A DNA stretch of 64,000 bases from Candidatus Kaiserbacteria bacterium RIFCSPLOWO2_01_FULL_45_25 (GCA_001781415.1 MFLT01000012.1:6485-70484), one strand, 5' to 3'. Shown: positions 476 through 7,425, counted from the stretch's first letter. Translations and numbers: made by a program. Notes: generated from the letters alone by a model not told the origin.

Positions 476-1810
476 TTATATTCCGGTGGCTAAACCAGTT
501 GGTAAGTTGCTTGGAGCTTCCTTGCGGGCTGAGGTAATACGTGGGAGTGACGGTGTTACCACTGATGTGCCTGGGATGTGGTAAATAGTGGCTAATTCTT
601 CAGCTGAAAACACCTTCATGGCGTCTGCACCACCAACTCTATCTCTGTGATAATAGACGCGACCTTTGTAGAGCCCAAGTTCTTGCTCTTTCCACTTCTT
701 GATTCGTCGCCCCTTCGGGTCGGAGAACATCTTATAGTCAAAGTCAGTTCGCCAACGAGGACTTAATCCATTGCGTCCAATAATGTCATATTGTGAAAAG
801 GAGCGCAGGGTTGGCGAAATAAGGTCACCATCAAACTTCCCTTTTTCTGTAATGTATAACCAGCGAATTCCTACCTCATACGCATACTTGCCAATGTTGC
901 GTTCTATAGCAGCGATGGTGTCGCGCTCGTTCATAGTGAGCATTGGAGCCCTTTCATAAGTCTCTGAATCAGGATCAGGTCTCTGGTCGCGCTTGAGAAT
1001 TTCATTAATCTTAGCAATGGCCTTTTTATCCCAGGTCGGAGTTTCGGTTAAGTGGCCATTCTTAAATACTTTTTTAACATGAGGCACTGCCAAGATTTGA
1101 ATCCAGACACGTTCATGTGGTTTTACTTTTCCGAGCTGTTCTAGCATGGCGGCCATCGGTTCAAACTTCTCTTCTTCTTTAGGGAGTTTGTCTAGTCCGA
1201 AGTCAATGTAAGTTTTGATTGGAAAAATTTCGTCCTCTTTCTTTCCCATATGGAAAGCCATGTATTCGTAGCGCTCAGGATCCCAAGGAATTTCGTCGGT
1301 GTAATCAATATCTTCTTCTACCACTTCAATCCCTGGATACTGAGCGTATAGTTGAGCTTCCAGTGCATTTTTGGTTTTCTTGGTTGGGACGTTGATATAA
1401 AAACGTACTTCCCCTCCTGTGGAGACCAATTCAAAACTAAACGTCAACGGGTGCTTGCCGTCTAGGTACGTCTGCATGAGGTTATCAGGACTGTTTACGT
1501 TGTGAATCTGTGAAATTACACTCTCCATCGCCTCCGGAGACTTAAAGACGTTTTGTGGTAGGTGGATTCGCAGGGTTGAGCGGCCTTGGTTGGCAGCAAA
1601 TTTATTTTGAATGTAATACATCCATCTATCGAAAGTCAAATAGAACAAAGTAATTGGCAACCAGATTGGTGTAAGAGCCACCATCACCGAAAAGATCGGC
1701 CCTGGGTCGATATTCATTAGGTTGAGAAGGTAAATAAATACCAAAAGTCCAAGTACGAGCATGAGCGGCCCAGCGGTCGCTCCAAAGATAGTTTTTATAA
1801 TTTCACCCAT
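476..1810 (-). CDS. hypothetical membrane protein (two N-terminal TM helices, large soluble domain)
   Basis: 444-aa ORF, ATG start verified, hydrophobic N-terminus; no recognisable family. Confidence 0.6.
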   Translation of the reverse strand: MGEIIKTIFGATAGPLMLVLGLLVFIYLLNLMNIDPGPIFSVMVALTPIWLPITLFYLTFDRWMYYIQNKFAANQGRSTLRIHLPQNVFKSPEAMESVISQIHNVNSPDNLMQTYLDGKHPLTFSFELVSTGGEVRFYINVPTKKTKNALEAQLYAQYPGIEVVEEDIDYTDEIPWDPERYEYMAFHMGKKEDEIFPIKTYIDFGLDKLPKEEEKFEPMAAMLEQLGKVKPHERVWIQILAVPHVKKVFKNGHLTETPTWDKKAIAKINEILKRDQRPDPDSETYERAPMLTMNERDTIAAIERNIGKYAYEVGIRWLYITEKGKFDGDLISPTLRSFSQYDIIGRNGLSPRWRTDFDYKMFSDPKGRRIKKWKEQELGLYKGRVYYHRDRVGGADAMKVFSAEELATIYHIPGTSVVTPSLPRITSARKEAPSNLPTGLATGI

Positions 1811-1827
1811 GTCTGCCTATTGTACTA

Positions 1828-1864
1828 CAAAACCCCCACCGGACGGGTGTCGGGTGGGGGTTTT
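1828..1864. terminator. intrinsic terminator hairpin (CCCCCACC...GGTGGGGG) with U-runs on both sides
   Basis: perfect 8-bp GC stem flanked by A-run/T-run between converging-like gene ends. Confidence 0.5.
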
Positions 1865-1881
1865 GCTGGACTTTATATAAT

Positions 1882-2907
1882 TTATTCAGCGAGGGTGTAG
1901 GTGCCATTACTTAGTCGACGGAAAAGGTTGGCATCTTGGAGGTTTACGATGATGGTGTTGTCCTTCACGTAGCGCTCCTTGCGTACTTTGTCGATAAGTT
2001 CTTCACGAGAGAGTGGACCTTCCTTACCGAGAATTTCCCGTAGGACGTCCTTGACCACTCCAGCCGTGTAGCCCCATTCAGTGAGAGCGTAGAGACCGCG
2101 TCCAACTAGGACAAACCGTTGGTCTTTAATGAGCTCGTTGTGAGTGGTGGCGATGTGAGCCTTGTGCTTGAATAGGTTGTCGATAGACTCTGCTACTTCA
2201 CGGAAGTGCATAGGTGAACCATGGCGCTTCACAGCTAGGTAGGCGTAATCACGGATACCCTTAACTTTAATATTTGGACTTTCTGCTGGACCCCAATCTC
2301 CGAGTGGGTTCTTGCCAATTTGCTTAGACATGAGTAGCCAGCGCTTTAGAACTTGCTCATCGTACTTATCTGCCAGCTCCATGAGTTCTCCGCGGAAGCG
2401 ATTGAGAATCTCTTGTTCACTGATAAGTTCATCAGATTGTAGAGTGCCATGCACTTGCTTGAGGGCCTTTTCTACTTGGTCAGCGACTTTACGCTCAGTA
2501 AACCAACGATGTGTATAGGTAGGGTTTTCTTTACCTCGATAGAATGGATCTCCAACTACCAATAAGAAATAGAGGTGGTTTTTGACAATTGGATCAGAAG
2601 TAAGTTCGTCCAAAAAGACGTGTTCAGCAATGACTCCTCCACCAAGTTGGTCGATAAGAGCCTGCATTTCAATAAAAAGATCGTAATGCTTCTTGTATTC
2701 TTCTGACTTTTGGATAGCTTGAATACCGTAGTTTTCAATCTGACGAACACGCTCACGAGTAATACCGTAAGCCTGACCAATTGATTCTAGGGTTGATGTT
2801 TCACCATTTGGGCCAAGACCATAGCGCTTTGTGAGGACGTCACGTGCACGCTCAGGCAGTACGCCGAGAAGTGATTTACTGATTTGTTTTGGTTTGAATG
2901 AAATCAT
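1882..2907 (-). CDS. DNA-binding protein: N-terminal sigma-70 region-4 HTH plus C-terminal HARE-HTH-like domain
   Basis: TLESIGQAYGITRERVRQIE matches sigma-70 r4.2; C-terminal GSPMHFREVAESI...DQRFVLVGRGLYALTEWGY resembles HARE-HTH (RpoE-delta N-domain type). Confidence 0.6.
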   Translation of the reverse strand: MISFKPKQISKSLLGVLPERARDVLTKRYGLGPNGETSTLESIGQAYGITRERVRQIENYGIQAIQKSEEYKKHYDLFIEMQALIDQLGGGVIAEHVFLDELTSDPIVKNHLYFLLVVGDPFYRGKENPTYTHRWFTERKVADQVEKALKQVHGTLQSDELISEQEILNRFRGELMELADKYDEQVLKRWLLMSKQIGKNPLGDWGPAESPNIKVKGIRDYAYLAVKRHGSPMHFREVAESIDNLFKHKAHIATTHNELIKDQRFVLVGRGLYALTEWGYTAGVVKDVLREILGKEGPLSREELIDKVRKERYVKDNTIIVNLQDANLFRRLSNGTYTLAE

Positions 2908-2998
2908 AAAACTGTTATTTGCCCAATAGTTCCCTCAATGCGATGACCATTTATAACATGAGTCTTGCAGAAGGTCAACTACTTTATTCCATTCGTAA

Positions 2999-3325
2999 TT
3001 AATTGGGTCTAACTACGGTAGCTAGACCAAGTCCGGCCTCCCTTAATGACGCTAATCCCTCACATACATCAATGGTCTCGATACCGGTGGTTTTGAGTAC
3101 TTCGTTCGTATAACTACTGCGTCCACCGGTTTCGCAGATGAGGTAGATGTTCTTGAACTTCTGGAGCATTGGAACGTGTTTGCCGATGGTACTTAATGGC
3201 ATATTGAGACTGTTTGGGATATGTTCACTTTCGAACTCTTCAACTTCACGCACATCAACAATTACATCTTCTGGTGTGAGATTTGGGAGTACTTCGAGAA
3301 ACTCCTTGGTAGAAATAGTTTTCAT
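2999..3325 (-). CDS. rhodanese-domain sulfurtransferase (single domain)
   Basis: 108 aa with CETGGRS active-site loop (Cys-X-X-G-X-R). Confidence 0.8.
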   Translation of the reverse strand: MKTISTKEFLEVLPNLTPEDVIVDVREVEEFESEHIPNSLNMPLSTIGKHVPMLQKFKNIYLICETGGRSSYTNEVLKTTGIETIDVCEGLASLREAGLGLATVVRPN

Positions 3326-3343: not shown

Positions 3344-6166
3344 TTATACAATTAGGTTTAAGATTTTACCAGGTACGTAGATAACTTTCCTAATCTCACC
3401 TGTTAAATACTTTTCAACTCCTTCACTATGACGAGCAGCTTCAAGCGCTTCGGCTTCACTGGCTTCGGGAGAAACTGCAATGGTCCCACGCATTTTACCA
3501 TTAACTTGGACAGCAATTGTGACAATATCATCCACAATCAGACTTTCGTCTGCCTCAGGGAATTTAGTTAGGTGGATTGATTCAGTCTTCCCTGCTGCTA
3601 CCCATAGCTCAGCAGTGAGGTGTGGAGCAAATGGCGCCAAGACTCGAAGGAAGGTCTCGTAGTCACCCGTTGTGATGCCATTTTTTTCCACATGATTAAC
3701 AAACATCATCATGGCACTGATGGCGGTATTGAATTTAAAGGTGGTAATATCCTCGCTCACCTTCTTTATGGTCTTATGAAGAAGTTTGTCAGTGTCGAAT
3801 GCTACATCAACAATATGCTCAGATAGACCGTTCACTCGCTCAAGGAAGCGCCGTACACCAGCGATACCGCCGAGGTCAAACGGATAGTTAGAACCTTCGT
3901 AAGGTCCCATAAAAGCTAAGTACATCTTAACGGTGTCAGCTCCCACCCGCTTCACGTGTTCGTCTGGGTCAATGACGTTACCTTTACTCTTACTCATCTT
4001 GTTGCCGTCTGGACCAAGGATAAGTCCACGATTGAGGCGACGACGGTATGGTTCATTTTCGGTTACCAATCCAAGGTCAAAAAGCACCTTCTGCCAAAAG
4101 CGAGAATACAGAAGGTGCATGGTCGTATGCTCCGCTCCTCCAAAATAAATATCAATCGGCATCCAGTCTTTCTGGTGAGCTAGTGAGGCGATTTCTTCGC
4201 TGTTTTTGTTATCAAGATAGCGCAAGAAATACCAAGACGAATCCACAAAGGTGTCCATCGTTTCAACTTCTGGAGTCCAGCCAGCCCCAAAGATACTTTC
4301 GGTACGCTTCTTCAGCTCCTCACTCTTAGCTAGTGGCGCCACGCCAGTTGGTTTGAAGTCTACATCCTCGGGCAAGTGCCATGGTAAATGTTCCTTTGGA
4401 ATTGGATGAGCGTTGCCCTCCGGGTCATACACAATTGGAATCGGTACACCCCAATAACGTTGCCGGCCAATTGACCAGTCTCGCAAACGGTAGGTTGAAG
4501 ACATCTTGCCGCCAACTTTTTCTACAATCTTTTCTTTTGCTGTTTCAGAGTCCAGGCCATCAAATTCTCCAGAGTTGATAATCACGCCTGTTCCAGTGAA
4601 AATTTGTCCTTCAGTGAAGGCTGCCCAACCCTTCTGGTGTCCTTCCCACGTAAGTAGATTTTTTACCTCTGACTTATCTACCCATTCAATAGTGTGTTTA
4701 CCGTCTTCTAGTTCAGAGGGCTTTTGGTCGAGCGACTTCAACTTGATATGGTAAAAAGAACTTATTGTAAGTTGATTCTTATCCTTGGTGTGTCTGTAGC
4801 CATGACCTTGTGAGGTTGTAACCACATCGCCAATGATTTCATATTCTGTAAATCCAGTTTCTTCTTCTAGTTCGCGTCCAATCGCGACCACTTGTGATTC
4901 CCCGTCAGTCCCTCCACCTACAAAGTGAATGTGGGTATGAGTCCCATCTACTTCCTTTTGAACGAGAAACTGTCCATTTGTTGGGTGTTCAATCATTAGG
5001 TCGACACATTCGCGTACTAGAGTTTCTTTTTCTGGTTTCGGCGCTGAGATGCCAGTGAAAACAATTTTTTCTGCCACCACCTGCTTCACAGGGATGCTGA
5101 ACTTCTTAGCAAACGCACCATCTCTTTCATCATGTGCTGGTACCGCCATAATCGCACCTGTTCCGTAAGAAGCTAGGACGTAGTCAGATATATAAATTGG
5201 AATCTCCTCACCCAAGGCAGGATTGGTAGCCGTAACGCCTTCTAGCTTTACCCCAGTCTTTTCTTTGGTGGTGTCTAGACGGTCTTGCTCGTCTTTTTGT
5301 TTGGCTAGAGCTACATAGTCAGCAACTTCAGCGTAATTACTGATGTTGGCCTCGTTTTGAGCTACTAGTGGGTGCTCTGGAGCGAGAACGAGGTAAGTCG
5401 CCCCGTATAGGGTGTCGGGACGAGTAGTAAAGACAGTAACACTTTCACCAGTTGAAAGTTTGAAGTCTAGCGTCGCACCATTTGAGCGGCCGATCCACTG
5501 TCGCTGCGCTTCTTTGATGTGCTCTGGCCAATCAAGCGGGTCGAGGTCATCAGTCAGTCGGTCAGCGTACTTGGTAATACGAAGCATCCACTGCGGCATC
5601 TCGCGTTTTTCGATGACATCGCCCGAGCGTTCACAAGTGCCATCACTTAGCACCTGCTCGTTGGCAATTACTGTATTGCAGCCTGGACACCAGTTCACAA
5701 TTCCCTTTCCGCGGTACGCAATGTCCTTTCTAAAGAATTCAGTAAACATCCACTGGGTCCACTTGTAGTAGTCGGCGTCTGTTGAGCTGGTGGTCTTATC
5801 CCATGAGAAAGCGTTACCCATACTAGCGAGTTGGGTCTTCATGAAGGCGATGTTGTCGTTGGTCCAGGCTTTAGGGTCGAGATTTCGTTTGATAGCAGCA
5901 TTTTCGGCAGGGAGACCAAAAGCATCAAAGCCCATTGGGTAGAGCACCTGCTTCCCCATCATACGCTTGTAGCGTACGTAGATGTCTGGCACAGCAAAAG
6001 CGTACCAGTGTCCAATATGGAGATTCCCAGACGGGTATGGCCATTCGACGAGGACGTATTCCTTTTCTTTGCTATTGTCTCGCTCTCCGACATTGTATAT
6101 GCCCTCTTCCTCCCAAATCTGTTGCCACTTCTTCTCAATTTCGCCTGAATCAAACTTTTTATGCAT
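3344..6166 (-). CDS. leuS: leucyl-tRNA synthetase with inserted Nudix-box domain
   Basis: HIGH-type (HIGHWYA), KMSKS (KMSKSKGNVI), TTRPDT editing motif, GTGAIMAVPAHDERD; ~120-aa insertion before NSGEFDGLD containing canonical Nudix box GX5EX7REUXEEXGU (GGGTDGESQVVAIGRELEEETGF). Confidence 0.95.
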   Translation of the reverse strand: MHKKFDSGEIEKKWQQIWEEEGIYNVGERDNSKEKEYVLVEWPYPSGNLHIGHWYAFAVPDIYVRYKRMMGKQVLYPMGFDAFGLPAENAAIKRNLDPKAWTNDNIAFMKTQLASMGNAFSWDKTTSSTDADYYKWTQWMFTEFFRKDIAYRGKGIVNWCPGCNTVIANEQVLSDGTCERSGDVIEKREMPQWMLRITKYADRLTDDLDPLDWPEHIKEAQRQWIGRSNGATLDFKLSTGESVTVFTTRPDTLYGATYLVLAPEHPLVAQNEANISNYAEVADYVALAKQKDEQDRLDTTKEKTGVKLEGVTATNPALGEEIPIYISDYVLASYGTGAIMAVPAHDERDGAFAKKFSIPVKQVVAEKIVFTGISAPKPEKETLVRECVDLMIEHPTNGQFLVQKEVDGTHTHIHFVGGGTDGESQVVAIGRELEEETGFTEYEIIGDVVTTSQGHGYRHTKDKNQLTISSFYHIKLKSLDQKPSELEDGKHTIEWVDKSEVKNLLTWEGHQKGWAAFTEGQIFTGTGVIINSGEFDGLDSETAKEKIVEKVGGKMSSTYRLRDWSIGRQRYWGVPIPIVYDPEGNAHPIPKEHLPWHLPEDVDFKPTGVAPLAKSEELKKRTESIFGAGWTPEVETMDTFVDSSWYFLRYLDNKNSEEIASLAHQKDWMPIDIYFGGAEHTTMHLLYSRFWQKVLFDLGLVTENEPYRRRLNRGLILGPDGNKMSKSKGNVIDPDEHVKRVGADTVKMYLAFMGPYEGSNYPFDLGGIAGVRRFLERVNGLSEHIVDVAFDTDKLLHKTIKKVSEDITTFKFNTAISAMMMFVNHVEKNGITTGDYETFLRVLAPFAPHLTAELWVAAGKTESIHLTKFPEADESLIVDDIVTIAVQVNGKMRGTIAVSPEASEAEALEAARHSEGVEKYLTGEIRKVIYVPGKILNLIV

Positions 6167-6319: not shown

Positions 6320-6925
6320 TTAGCGCCGATAGAGAGCTATAAGTTCTTCTTCAGAAATCACTCTGTGCACGATGCCATACTGAACTGCTTCTCGGGCTGA
6401 GAGGGTGGCATTGCCGCGCATCAGGTTCAAAAAGAGGGAAGAAGGAAGACCGGTTTGTTTCGACATGAAATCGAGCATCCACTCTTGTCCACGTCGCAGC
6501 TGATCGTGCCACTGCTTGAGGAACTCCTGCTGTGGACGTTTCGACTGCCGAGCCATTTCTTCTTCAATCTCAAGCGCGTGCTCGACGTCGCAGATGGTCA
6601 CCTCTAAACCTGGACGAAAGATTGTCCTTACTTCATGGAAGAAGTATGTCGATTCAGGTAAAGCGAGACGTTCCCTTCCGAGTAATTGCAAGACAATTGC
6701 AGCCGAGGCAACACGTTCGCCGATTGAGACAAACCCTGAACGCGCGAGAGCTGGTGCCAAGCGTGAAAAGAAGTTGAACGTGCCGCCTGGTGAGTCAATC
6801 ATCACACATGCCGAACCGTAATTTCTCTGAAGTTGCTCGAGGAGTTTTTCGATGCGGTACCCAGAAATCTCTCCTTCAAATTTTGTCATGTACATAATAC
6901 CTCCAAAGGTTGTTTGTTGAGCCAA
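6320..6925 (-). CDS. ClpP/S14-family peptidase-like protein
   Basis: IDSPGG motif (cf. ClpP INSPGG), Ser in GERVASAA, C-terminal ...LSAREAVQYGIV typical of ClpP family; true start may be an internal Met. Confidence 0.55.
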   Translation of the reverse strand: MAQQTTFGGIMYMTKFEGEISGYRIEKLLEQLQRNYGSACVMIDSPGGTFNFFSRLAPALARSGFVSIGERVASAAIVLQLLGRERLALPESTYFFHEVRTIFRPGLEVTICDVEHALEIEEEMARQSKRPQQEFLKQWHDQLRRGQEWMLDFMSKQTGLPSSLFLNLMRGNATLSAREAVQYGIVHRVISEEELIALYRR

Positions 6926-6993: not shown

Positions 6994-7425
6994 CTAAACC
7001 CGACCTGGTAGTTCGTCGTCTTTGATATTTAGTAACCAATCAGCCTTTTCTGCTTCCTTGACTTGAGTGAGGAATTTAACTTTCACTAGATCGTTAGCTG
7101 TCTCTAGTTTAGATTCATCGACATCTTCTATATAAACGTACACATCGTACATGTCAGGAGTCTTCGTCTCTACATATTTAAATGGAATCGGTTTTGAACC
7201 GTTCTTATCAATTTTAAACTTAAGCTCATCGGCCAGGGCTCGCTTTAGGGTGTCGTAGGCGGTTTCGTCCCCTAGGGTGAACCCACCAAACCCGGTTATA
7301 AGTGCCGTGTCTGTGATATTTTCAACTGGTAGTTTTTGCAGAAGAATATACCCTTCCTGATTTCGGAGGATGGCTCCGACTGACACAATTCGTCCGTCAA
7401 ACTCTAATTTTGTTTCAAATCCCAT
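6994..7425 (-). CDS. hypothetical small protein, Nudix-like fold with degenerate Nudix box
   Basis: VSVGAILRNQEGYILLQK then GGFTLGDETAYDTLKRALADELKF partially fits GX5EX7REUXEEXGU. Confidence 0.45.
   Translation of the reverse strand: MGFETKLEFDGRIVSVGAILRNQEGYILLQKLPVENITDTALITGFGGFTLGDETAYDTLKRALADELKFKIDKNGSKPIPFKYVETKTPDMYDVYVYIEDVDESKLETANDLVKVKFLTQVKEAEKADWLLNIKDDELPGRV

What the first reader, a model, noticed from the sequence alone, without database searches (positions are those of the whole stretch)
1882..2907. Protein combining sigma-70 region-4 HTH (N-terminal) with a HARE-HTH-like domain (C-terminal)
The segment TLESIGQAYGITRERVRQIENYGIQAIQK is a textbook sigma-70 r4.2 HTH. It lies at residues ~38-66 with no sigma regions 2/3.

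The C-terminal ~90 aa (GSPMHFREVAESIDNLF...DQRFVLVGRGLYALTEWGY) matches the HARE-HTH pattern of the RNAP delta subunit and ASXL proteins.

Such a protein could be an RNAP-associated factor, possibly a delta-like or anti-sigma-like modulator, in an organism with few regulators.
Basis: partly seen in the sequence, partly recalled or inferred. Interest (0 to 1): 0.5.

Follow-up and report, generated by a model that had tools for sequence, protein, structure and literature searches.

The report
Essential sigma-4 plus winged-helix DNA-binding protein
The gene encodes a very conserved protein of the ultra-small Patescibacteria that joins a copy of the promoter-reading part of the main sigma factor to three winged-helix domains; its counterpart is essential in the one species tested, yet nobody has studied what it does.

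Summary
ORF 1882-2907 (-) encodes 341 aa with Sigma70_r4 (54 bits) and HARE-HTH (29 bits), both above Pfam gathering cut-offs. There is no sigma region 2/3 and no acidic delta tail.

A confident AlphaFold model (pLDDT 97.5, pTM 0.88) shows a compact protein of sigma-4, winged helix, helical spacer, HARE winged helix and a last winged helix.

The family has one architecture (125/125 diverse members), spans Patescibacteria, and is more conserved than LeuS. The sigma residues that contact the -35 hexamer (TRERVRQ) are invariant.

Its promoter carries gene-specific conserved elements. All 21 TTGAC-N4-GTCAA palindromes found in 1.35 Mb sit there.

The gene almost always precedes a DUF8128 membrane protein, usually followed by an orphan T4CP-like ATPase.

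In Ca. Southlakia epibionticum the counterpart identified by domains and synteny (SEML1_0294) is Tn-seq essential; its ATPase neighbour is not.

Best reading: an essential, autoregulated, TTGAC-reading DNA-binding factor with a general role at promoters. It is not a sigma factor or a delta subunit.

The parts
1882..2907 (-). Whole gene: 341-aa sigma-4 / winged-helix / HARE winged-helix / winged-helix protein, stop codon included
   Evidence: ORF list; Pfam; homologues of 341 aa at 80-93% identity; AF2 model with pLDDT 97.5 and pTM 0.88
2689..2907 (-). Residues 1-73: a complete sigma-70 region 4 (4.1, 4.2 and the C-terminal tail helix) of the primary-sigma type
2740..2760 (-). Codons for T50-R51-E52-R53-V54-R55-Q56, the recognition helix. 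It equals E. coli sigma70 T583-Q589, whose R584/E585/R588/Q589 contact the -35 hexamer.
   Evidence: Sequence read. R51, E52, R53, R55 and Q56 are invariant and T50 >=90% conserved in 125 members at 33-61% identity. Aligned to TRERIRQ of S. aureus SigA region 4. The role of these residues comes from established knowledge (sigma-4/-35 DNA structure 1KU7).
2500..2685 (-). Residues 75-136: first winged helix (H-strand-H-H-strand-strand); no Pfam family
2263..2499 (-). Residues 137-215: three long helices plus a beta hairpin. This is the least conserved part and acts as a spacer between the two halves.
   Evidence: Model. Lowest conservation of all segments: mean top-residue frequency 0.34. No similarity to the RNAP alpha C-terminal domain.
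2059..2262 (-). Residues 216-283: HARE-type winged helix, the most conserved domain (HNELIKDxRFVLVGRGxYAL.EWGY)
1885..2058 (-). Residues 284-341: C-terminal winged helix
   Evidence: Model. Weak Pfam matches to winged-helix families across members: DUF3320, DUF7669, TBPIP, TFIIE_beta, WH_Rok.
2950..2978 (-). The gene's own promoter: -35 TTGACC (2973-2978), a 17-nt spacer, and an extended -10 TGtTATAAA (2950-2958)
   Evidence: Read. TTGAC plus a TGn extended -10 occurs in 71 of 78 related loci. In 21 related species the spacer holds GTCAA, giving the palindrome TTGAC-N4-GTCAA. The window itself lacks the palindrome.
2933..2943 (-). tCGCATTGAGG box 7-17 nt downstream of the -10, at or near the transcription start. 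It is gene-specific and contains a TTGA core.
   Evidence: It is the only copy among ten loose matches in the window (<=2 mismatches; the site here has 1) that lies at this promoter, and the motif is not enriched. CGCAT[TA]G follows the -10 in 47 of 78 loci, and the 8-mer is at or below chance elsewhere (17 found, ~25 expected). It is the only conserved block of the leader, and no consensus RNA structure was found.
1829..1860 (-). Intrinsic terminator right after the stop codon: CCCCCACC...GGTGGGGG followed by TTTT
   Evidence: A hairpin of dG <= -10 kcal/mol followed by a T-run occurs in 47 of 80 related loci.
1819..1824 (-). TACAAT -10-like box abutting the terminator, 8 nt before the ATG of the downstream gene. 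It has no -35 partner, because the terminator occupies that place.
   Evidence: (T)AGTACAAT or TGTACAAT is seen in nearly all of the 25 related loci printed.
476..1810 (-). Downstream partner gene: a 444-aa membrane protein, a DUF8128 (PF26449) homologue
   Evidence: No hit in the local Pfam or NCBIfam copies. BLASTP 27-32% identity, E 1e-39 to 1e-62, to proteins marked PF26449 in other loci. Directly downstream in 78 of 80 related loci.

Best explanation
The gene encodes a member of a Patescibacteria-wide family with a single architecture. Its ~340 residues form only nucleic-acid-binding-type domains: a full copy of primary-sigma region 4, a winged helix, a helical spacer, a HARE-type winged helix and a last winged helix. 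It is neither a sigma factor (no regions 1-3) nor a delta subunit (no acidic tail).

Most likely it is a sequence-specific DNA-binding factor.
- It reads -35-like TTGAC sites with the sigma-4 recognition helix. The conservation is shown; the binding is inferred.
- The winged helices add contacts to neighbouring DNA or to partner proteins (inferred).
- It represses its own promoter by sitting on TTGAC-containing sites that overlap the -35/spacer and the start site, in competition with sigma-A region 4. This is inferred from conserved, gene-specific cis elements.
- It has an essential, general role at promoters in these regulator-poor bacteria. Essentiality is shown only for the S. epibionticum counterpart; the role is inferred.

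It is genomically coupled across the phylum to a DUF8128 membrane protein and an orphan T4CP-like ATPase. It probably controls that module or targets it to DNA. Because the ATPase is dispensable where tested, this cannot be its only job.
For: - Domains and fold.
- Invariance of R51/E52/R53/R55/Q56, which equal the -35-contacting residues of sigma70, in 125 members at 33-61% identity. A domain freed from -35 reading would be expected to drift.
- All 21 TTGAC-N4-GTCAA palindromes in 1.35 Mb of related loci lie ~90-110 nt upstream of this gene. Their spacers vary and their flanks are fully diverged.
- A second TTGAC or GTCAA lies within 1-9 nt at 23 of 77 own promoters, against 22 of 1529 other TTGAC sites.
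- A CGCATTGAGG box follows the -10 in 47 of 78 loci. It is not enriched elsewhere and has no RNA structure.
- A singleton variant adds a DnaA domain IV, one more sequence-specific DNA-binding HTH.
- Conservation: median identity 78% against LeuS 64% and DUF8128 57%; higher than both in 28 of 28 loci.
- Phylum-wide spread across Nomura-, Kaiser-, Campbell-, Sung-, Uhr-, Komeili-, Moran- and Falkowbacteria and Saccharimonadia.
- SEML1_0294 is flagged a core, Patescibacteria-enriched family and is called ES/ES/ES by Tn-seq (24 insertions in the input, then 1, 1, 2). SEML1_0293, the T4CP-like neighbour, is NE/NE/NE (PMC10633639). Correspondence is supported by the same Pfam layout and by the topA / X / T4CP / cas9 synteny in L221.
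- Gene link: DUF8128 lies downstream in 78 of 80 close loci and in five of seven further lineages sampled. Of 40 loci found through DUF8128 alone, 36 have this gene directly upstream.
Against: - No binding experiment exists; DNA recognition is inferred from residue conservation and cis elements.
- The palindrome is confined to one sub-clade and is absent from the window's own promoter. Related genomes are not independent samples. Another regulator could own these sites.
- Invariant sigma-4 residues could instead reflect a constrained protein interface.
- I could not inspect the model coordinates, so I do not know whether the recognition helix or the flap-binding groove of sigma-4 is exposed.
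- The HARE domain of delta binds RNAP, not DNA.
- Two loci place the gene next to rpoD-like genes, which also fits an RNAP-linked role.
- Essentiality is shown in one species only and was assigned by domain layout and synteny, not by aligning the sequence.
Confidence: 0.5

Rival explanations
1. RNAP-associated subunit or modulator. The sigma-4 domain docks on the beta-flap tip in competition with, or after release of, sigma-A region 4. Alternatively or additionally, the HARE domain docks on beta' as delta does. Either way, promoter selectivity or RNAP recycling would change.
For: - Homology of both domains to RNAP-binding modules.
- The whole sigma-4, including its tail helix, is kept.
- Foldseek aligns 112-117 columns to sigma-4/beta-flap-tip chimeras such as 8d5v.
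- Conservation is very high and the counterpart is a class I essential gene, a class enriched in information processing.
- The gene lies next to rpoD-like genes in L082 and L218.
Against: - The delta N-terminal domain binds the beta' shelf/jaw (PMC7749165, PMC11156646), far from the beta flap. A compact protein (pTM 0.88) cannot occupy both sites.
- There is no acidic tail and the protein's pI is 8.4.
- TIGR04567 scores below its cut-off.
- The chimera alignment adds almost nothing to the TM-score (0.72 against 0.70), so mimicry of the flap helix is unproven.
- Invariant base-contacting residues and own-promoter TTGAC elements point to DNA.
Confidence: 0.25
2. Dedicated component of the DUF8128/T4CP-like ATPase module. 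It would be either the module's local transcriptional regulator or its DNA-recognition adaptor. Analogies are TraM for the TraD coupling protein, or the winged-helix gamma domain of FtsK and the winged helix of Streptomyces TraB.
For: - The adjacency is strong in both directions across deep lineages.
- Spacers of 15-40 nt in other clades suggest an operon.
- The ATPase carries TrwB_AAD_bind and the TraM-recognition region TraG-D_C.
- The literature notes thousands of CPR T4CP homologues away from virB4, with function unknown (10.1101/2025.01.22.634366).
Against: - SEML1_0294 is essential while the adjacent T4CP-like SEML1_0293 is dispensable.
- In the window's clade the gene has its own promoter and terminator, and no such ATPase lies within 64 kb.
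- It is much more conserved than DUF8128.
- L082 and L218 lack DUF8128 next to it.
Confidence: 0.17
3. A sigma region 4 supplied in trans (a split sigma) for a primary sigma that has lost its own region 4.
For: The sigma-4 is of the primary-sigma type. It shares the one-residue-longer 4.1-4.2 loop seen in two neighbouring rpoD-like genes.
Against: - Patescibacterial RpoD-like proteins next to the gene keep Sigma70_r4 with TRERxRQ.
- S. epibionticum RpoD has regions 1.2, 2, 3 and 4.
Confidence: 0.03
4. Part of a mobile element or an anti-phage defence system. HARE-HTH is common in restriction systems, and the best NCBIfam/PADLOC name is MzaA.
For: Weak MzaA matches limited to the sigma-4 part. 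HARE-HTH is known in defence contexts (PMC12839542).
Against: - MzaA scores 48 bits against a cut-off of 800.
- Neighbours are housekeeping genes: leuS, secDF, uvrA, topA, mltG, mnmA, efp.
- Only 2 full-length hits turned up in IMG/VR and there is no full-length BFVD fold match.
- The family is essential where tested and flagged as core.
Confidence: 0.02

Closest known systems
Region 4 of primary (group 1/2) sigma-70 factors (SigA/RpoD/RpoS)
   Different: No regions 1.1-3.2, so it cannot bind the beta' clamp helices, melt the -10 or thread the RNA exit channel. It sits at the N-terminus and is followed by three winged helices. The basic activator-contact patch of sigma70 (K593/R596/K597/R599) is not kept (Y60/Q63/A64/Q66).
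RNA polymerase delta subunit (RpoE) of Firmicutes
   Different: Below the family cut-off of 42 bits. No acidic disordered C-terminal region. The domain is internal. The protein is twice as long. Delta is, from my own knowledge, dispensable in Firmicutes, whereas this family's counterpart is essential in S. epibionticum.
Lineage-specific essential general transcription factors (CarD, RbpA, WhiB1 of Actinobacteria; GrgA of Chlamydia)
   Same: Functional analogy only: clade-restricted, highly conserved, essential, and acting at most promoters.
   Different: No sequence or fold relation. Those factors are known to bind RNAP or sigma; that is untested here.
DNA-recognition partners of FtsK/T4CP-type motors (F-plasmid TraM with TraD; FtsK gamma domain with KOPS; Streptomyces TraB winged helix with clt)
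   Same: A sequence-reading HTH or winged-helix module associated with a HerA/FtsK/VirD4-superfamily ATPase. The neighbouring ATPase here has the TraG-D_C 'TraM recognition' region.
   Different: No homology to TraM or the gamma domain. The protein is a separate polypeptide. The partner ATPase is dispensable while this protein's counterpart is essential.
Stand-alone Sigma70_r4 proteins of phages, and MzaA
   Same: They contain a sigma-4 module outside a canonical sigma factor.
   Different: Those are short sigma-4-only proteins or a large defence protein. None has the winged-helix / HARE / winged-helix body. This family is cellular and flagged as core.

Membership tests
Sigma-70 family sigma factor | Region 2 (binds the beta' clamp helices, recognises and melts the -10) | tested here: not met
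   No Sigma70_r2 or r3 hit at E <= 1. RpoD/RpoS NCBIfam models match only residues 8-76, at 40-48 bits against cut-offs of 350-800. The sigma-4 starts about 10 residues from the N-terminus.
Sigma-70 family sigma factor | Region 4 HTH with -35-contact residues | tested here: met
RNAP delta subunit (RpoE, TIGR04567) | HARE-type N-terminal domain scoring above the family cut-off | tested here: not met
RNAP delta subunit (RpoE, TIGR04567) | Long acidic, disordered C-terminal region | tested here: not met
   The C-terminal 58 residues form a confident winged helix with pI 8.3; the whole protein has pI 8.4.
RNAP delta subunit (RpoE, TIGR04567) | Binds RNAP beta' between shelf and jaw | not testable with these tools
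   Needs a pull-down or a structure. Site known from PMC7749165 and PMC11156646.
HARE-HTH domain superfamily (PF05066) | Match above the gathering cut-off and a winged-helix fold | tested here: met
   29.0 bits against 25.9. Present in 125 of 125 members, best E 1.6e-17. H-H-H-strand-strand topology in the model.
Anti-sigma factors | A known anti-sigma domain (ASD/zinc, RsbW kinase, FlgM, Rsd, AsiA) | tested here: not met
   No such Pfam or NCBIfam hit. Binding to a sigma factor was not testable.
MZA defence protein MzaA | Full-length match to NF041931 / PDLC02203 | tested here: not met
   48.5 bits against a cut-off of 800, covering only the sigma-4 part.
Patescibacterial sigma-4/HARE family (unnamed; NCBI 'sigma factor-like helix-turn-helix DNA-binding protein', 'HARE-type protein') | ~330-380 aa; N-terminal Sigma70_r4, internal HARE-HTH, C-terminal winged helix; alignable over the full length | tested here: met
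   Full-length homologues at 80-93% identity. Using residues 70-341 alone as query, 399 clusters at 50% identity score E <= 1e-30, and their matches start at residues ~75-120. 125 of 125 members have both domains.
Patescibacterial sigma-4/HARE family (unnamed) | Located directly upstream of a DUF8128 gene | tested here: met
   Window 476-1810 is a DUF8128 homologue. 78 of 80 close loci. 36 of 40 loci in the reverse test.

The most novel reading that the evidence does not exclude
Patescibacteria possess an essential, phylum-specific general transcription factor that carries a free-standing second copy of sigma region 4. It would occupy or hand over -35 elements genome-wide, as a 'trans sigma-4' acting with or against sigma-A. 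Through its winged helices it would tie promoters or RNAP to a membrane-anchored T4CP-like DNA motor. That would be a mode of global promoter control not described in any other bacterial phylum.
Probability: 0.2. Interest if true: 0.8.

Novelty: new variant of a known kind. Interest (0 to 1): 0.6.

Why it matters
Patescibacteria make up a large share of bacterial diversity, have ~1-Mb genomes with very few regulators, and are almost unstudied at the level of transcription.

This family is present across the phylum, is more conserved than an aminoacyl-tRNA synthetase, and its counterpart is essential in the only species with Tn-seq data. Yet it is annotated only as 'RpoS', 'sigma factor-like' or 'hypothetical', and the papers I could search do not discuss it.

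A non-sigma protein that keeps the exact -35-reading helix of the housekeeping sigma gives a concrete, testable handle on how these cells control promoters.

The work also gives a genomic home to the many 'orphan' T4CP/VirD4 homologues of CPR bacteria, whose function the literature leaves open. They sit in a conserved sigma-4/HARE, DUF8128, ATPase module.

Tried and rejected
- Single-sequence AlphaFold gave a useless model (pLDDT 36). The alignment-based run was used instead.
- The afdb50 fold library was not available, so no structure-based census outside the PDB and BFVD was possible.
- The Aravind & Iyer 2012 HARE-HTH paper is not in the library. From memory, its abstract mentions bacterial proteins that combine features of the RNAP alpha subunit and sigma factors. 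I could not verify this, and hhalign to the E. coli alpha C-terminal domain was negative.
- Literature searches for HARE-HTH with sigma factor or Patescibacteria, and for DUF8128, found no treatment of this family.
- No paralogue of any part of the protein, and no T4CP-like ATPase, lies in the 64-kb window.
- Rfam found only a sub-threshold His_leader match over the terminator (E 0.91), taken as chance.
- RNAalifold found no structure in the 5' leader.
- PADLOC and NCBIfam gave nothing for the DUF8128 protein. The local Pfam copy lacks PF26449.
- The seven-sequence DUF8128 alignment was too divergent for a collection scan. A three-sequence one worked.
- The split-sigma and defence-system readings were considered and rejected (see rival explanations).
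- Whether the helix after sigma-4 mimics the beta-flap tip could not be settled from Foldseek scores alone.

Full report
**Observation.** The ORF lies exactly at 1882..2907 on the minus strand and encodes 341 aa. Pfam finds Sigma70_r4 at residues 13-67 (54.2 bits, cut-off 24.1) and HARE-HTH at residues 224-278 (29.0 bits, cut-off 25.9). NCBIfam sigma models match only their region-4 ends, far below their cut-offs. The delta-subunit model reaches 27 bits against a cut-off of 42. PDB sequence hits are sigma region 4 only. There is no region 2 or 3.

**Architecture.** A single-sequence fold failed. With an alignment of 125 diverse relatives (A1) AlphaFold2 gave pLDDT 97.5 and pTM 0.88. The order of elements is:
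- sigma-4, residues 1-73;
- a winged helix, 75-136;
- three long helices and a hairpin, 139-207;
- the HARE winged helix, 218-278;
- a further winged helix, 285-341.

**Family.**
- The top 120 database hits are 341-aa proteins at 80-93% identity, all carrying both Pfam domains, from Patescibacteria MAGs.
- Eighty species-level genomes carry the gene at 70-99% identity.
- Residues 70-341 alone, without sigma-4, retrieve 399 clusters at 50% identity with E <= 1e-30 and 1115 with E <= 1e-3. Typical lengths are 335-380 aa and the matches start at residues ~75-120. The N-terminal sigma-4 is therefore a fixed part of the family. 125 of 125 full-length representatives have both domains.
- Named members come from Nomura-, Kaiser-, Campbell-, Sung-, Uhr-, Komeili-, Moran-, Falkow- and Harrisonbacteria and from Saccharimonadia.
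- Automated names vary: 'sigma factor-like helix-turn-helix DNA-binding protein', 'HARE-type protein', 'RNA polymerase delta subunit', 'hypothetical'.
- Only two full-length copies occur among IMG/VR contigs.

**Conservation.** Across 28 loci with full coverage, median identity to the window protein is 78%, against 64% for LeuS and 57% for the downstream membrane protein. It is higher than both in all 28 loci. Within A1 the invariant positions are R28, L40, G44, R51, E52, R53, R55 and Q56 in sigma-4; G206; and N257, L259, G269, G271 and Y273 in the HARE domain. The HARE domain is the most conserved segment and the helical spacer the least. TRERVRQ aligns with TRERIRQ of primary sigmas. By established knowledge (E. 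coli R584/E585/R588/Q589; structure 1KU7) these residues read the -35 hexamer. The basic activator-contact patch of sigma70 is not retained (my alignment by eye).

**Cis elements.**
- The gene has its own promoter, TTGACC-17-TGtTATAAA, and a strong terminator directly after the stop codon.
- TTGAC plus an extended -10 is present in 71 of 78 related loci.
- In 21 species the spacer holds GTCAA, forming TTGAC-N4-GTCAA. These are all 21 occurrences of that pattern in 1.35 Mb of related loci. The N4 spacer varies, and the flanks are diverged beyond recognition. No conserved opposite-strand -10 explains the second half-site.
- A second TTGAC or GTCAA within 1-9 nt occurs at 23 of 77 own promoters, against 22 of 1529 other TTGAC sites. 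The binomial P value overstates significance, because the genomes are related.
- A CGCATTGAGG box follows the -10 in 47 of 78 loci. It is not enriched elsewhere. It is the only conserved block of the leader and has no consensus RNA structure.
- These gene-specific elements at the promoter of a protein that carries a -35-reading helix are best explained by autoregulation. This is an inference. The window's own promoter lacks the perfect palindrome.

**Gene neighbourhood.**
- The order leuS, this gene, 444-aa membrane protein holds in 75 and 78 of 80 close loci respectively. The rhodanese gene is present in only 2.
- The membrane protein is a DUF8128 (PF26449) homologue.
- In lineages where the protein is only 31-37% identical, the gene still precedes DUF8128 (L081, L083, L085, L086, L087, L219, L221). 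There DUF8128 is usually followed by, or fused to, a soluble T4CP-like ATPase with DUF87, TrwB_AAD_bind and TraG-D_C domains.
- Reverse test: 50 metagenome loci were found through DUF8128 alone. Forty have room upstream, and 36 of those carry a full-length family member directly upstream on the same strand. The ATPase follows wherever the contig allows.
- Flanking genes are housekeeping: secDF, uvrA, topA, efp, pgk, mltG, mnmA.
- In the window's clade the ATPase is not nearby. A terminator and a -35-less TACAAT box separate the two genes.
- Two loci lack DUF8128 and place the gene beside rpoD-like genes instead. Those sigmas keep region 4, which argues against a split sigma.
- One singleton variant adds a DnaA domain IV.

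**Experimental anchor.** In Wang et al. 2023 (PMC10633639), Tables S1 and S2 list SEML1_0294 of Ca. Southlakia epibionticum. It is annotated 'RpoS', is 1050 nt long, has PF04545 at residues 27-72 and PF05066 at 225-283, and is parsed as tri-helical plus three winged domains. It is flagged as a core, Patescibacteria-enriched family. Its Tn-seq calls are ES/ES/ES (24 insertions in the input; 1, 1 and 2 after selection). The adjacent SEML1_0293, a 921-aa T4CP-like protein, is NE/NE/NE. The main text does not discuss either gene. A Saccharibacteria locus with the same order, topA / this gene / DUF8128-T4CP fusion / cas9, supports the correspondence. I did not align the SEML1_0294 sequence itself. 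A preprint reports 5,713 VirD4-type T4CP homologues in CPR genomes, only 148 of them near virB4, and leaves their function open (10.1101/2025.01.22.634366).

**Interpretation.** The protein is not a sigma factor and not a delta subunit; defining features of both were tested and not met. The delta N-terminal domain binds the beta' shelf/jaw. Sigma-4 binds the beta flap (established knowledge). A compact 38-kDa protein is unlikely to reach both, so the simple 'sigma-4 plus delta, both docked on RNAP' picture is improbable. That step is inference.

The weight of sequence evidence favours a DNA-binding factor that reads TTGAC-type sites. That evidence is the invariant base-contacting residues, four HTH-type domains, the own-promoter TTGAC elements and the DnaA-domain variant. 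The essentiality of its counterpart and its extreme conservation argue for a general role, not the control of one dispensable module. I give this reading a confidence of 0.5. The RNAP-associated reading remains the main rival (0.25). A dedicated regulator or adaptor of the DUF8128/T4CP module follows (0.17).

**Novelty.** The domain combination is visible in public annotation, and the Tn-seq essentiality of its counterpart sits in a supplementary table. I found no paper that analyses the family. I file it as a new variant of a known kind: a sigma-4-containing non-sigma protein with a HARE winged helix. As far as I can tell, four points are new here:
- the four-domain fold;
- the invariance of the -35-reading residues;
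- the promoter palindrome and the start-site box;
- the phylum-wide three-gene module with DUF8128 and the orphan T4CP-like ATPase.

Noticed in passing
window 4643-4981 (-), within leuS 3344-6166: The 940-aa leucyl-tRNA synthetase carries a NUDIX hydrolase domain (residues 396-508, 36 bits, with a GX5EX7REUXEEXGU-like box). It is inserted right after a truncated match to the editing domain (profile positions 1-143 of 185). A separate 143-aa NUDIX gene lies at 6994-7425. The NUDIX query also hit inside leuS of L016.
   Followed up: partly
window 1811-1860 (-); L001-L080 just downstream of the family gene: The terminator of the sigma-4/HARE gene abuts a conserved (T)AGTACAAT or TGTACAAT box that lies only 7-12 nt before the ATG of the DUF8128 gene. 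This suggests a -35-less promoter producing a leaderless or nearly leaderless mRNA. The hairpin sits where a -35 would be.
   Followed up: partly
L085, L086, L087, L168-L217, L219, L221: The 'orphan' VirD4/T4CP-like ATPases of Patescibacteria sit in a conserved chromosomal module of sigma-4/HARE, DUF8128 membrane protein and ATPase. DUF8128 and the ATPase are separate in Paceibacteria and fused in Saccharibacteria and in L214/L217. The module often follows secD-secF. In the window's clade and in Campbellbacteria the ATPase is missing from the locus.
   Followed up: yes
P0204 / L218 2540-4198; L082 7167-8825: A singleton family variant ends in a DnaA domain IV (Bac_DnaA_C, 80 bits). It lies between a parB / rpoD-like pair and an ECF-like sigma gene. 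A 552-aa RpoD-like protein convergent with the family gene in L082 also ends in a weak DnaA_C-like region (27 bits, below the cut-off).
   Followed up: partly
window 2999-3325 (-): The rhodanese gene between leuS and the family gene is present in only 2 of 80 related loci. It is therefore a recent insertion into an otherwise fixed leuS / sigma-4-HARE junction.
   Followed up: no
window 6320-6925 (-): A 201-aa ORF matches only the last ~57 positions of the ClpP profile (32 bits). Its TTG start lies downstream of a consensus TTGACA-17-TATGTT promoter. It may be a divergent or degenerate Clp-like protein.
   Followed up: no
L006, L036, L054, L079 upstream of the family gene: Instead of the inverted TTGAC-N4-GTCAA, some species have direct repeats of TTGAC at the promoter (for example TTGACCAATTGACA and TTGACCTTCTTGAC). 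Multiple TTGAC sites may therefore be a more general feature of this promoter.
   Followed up: partly
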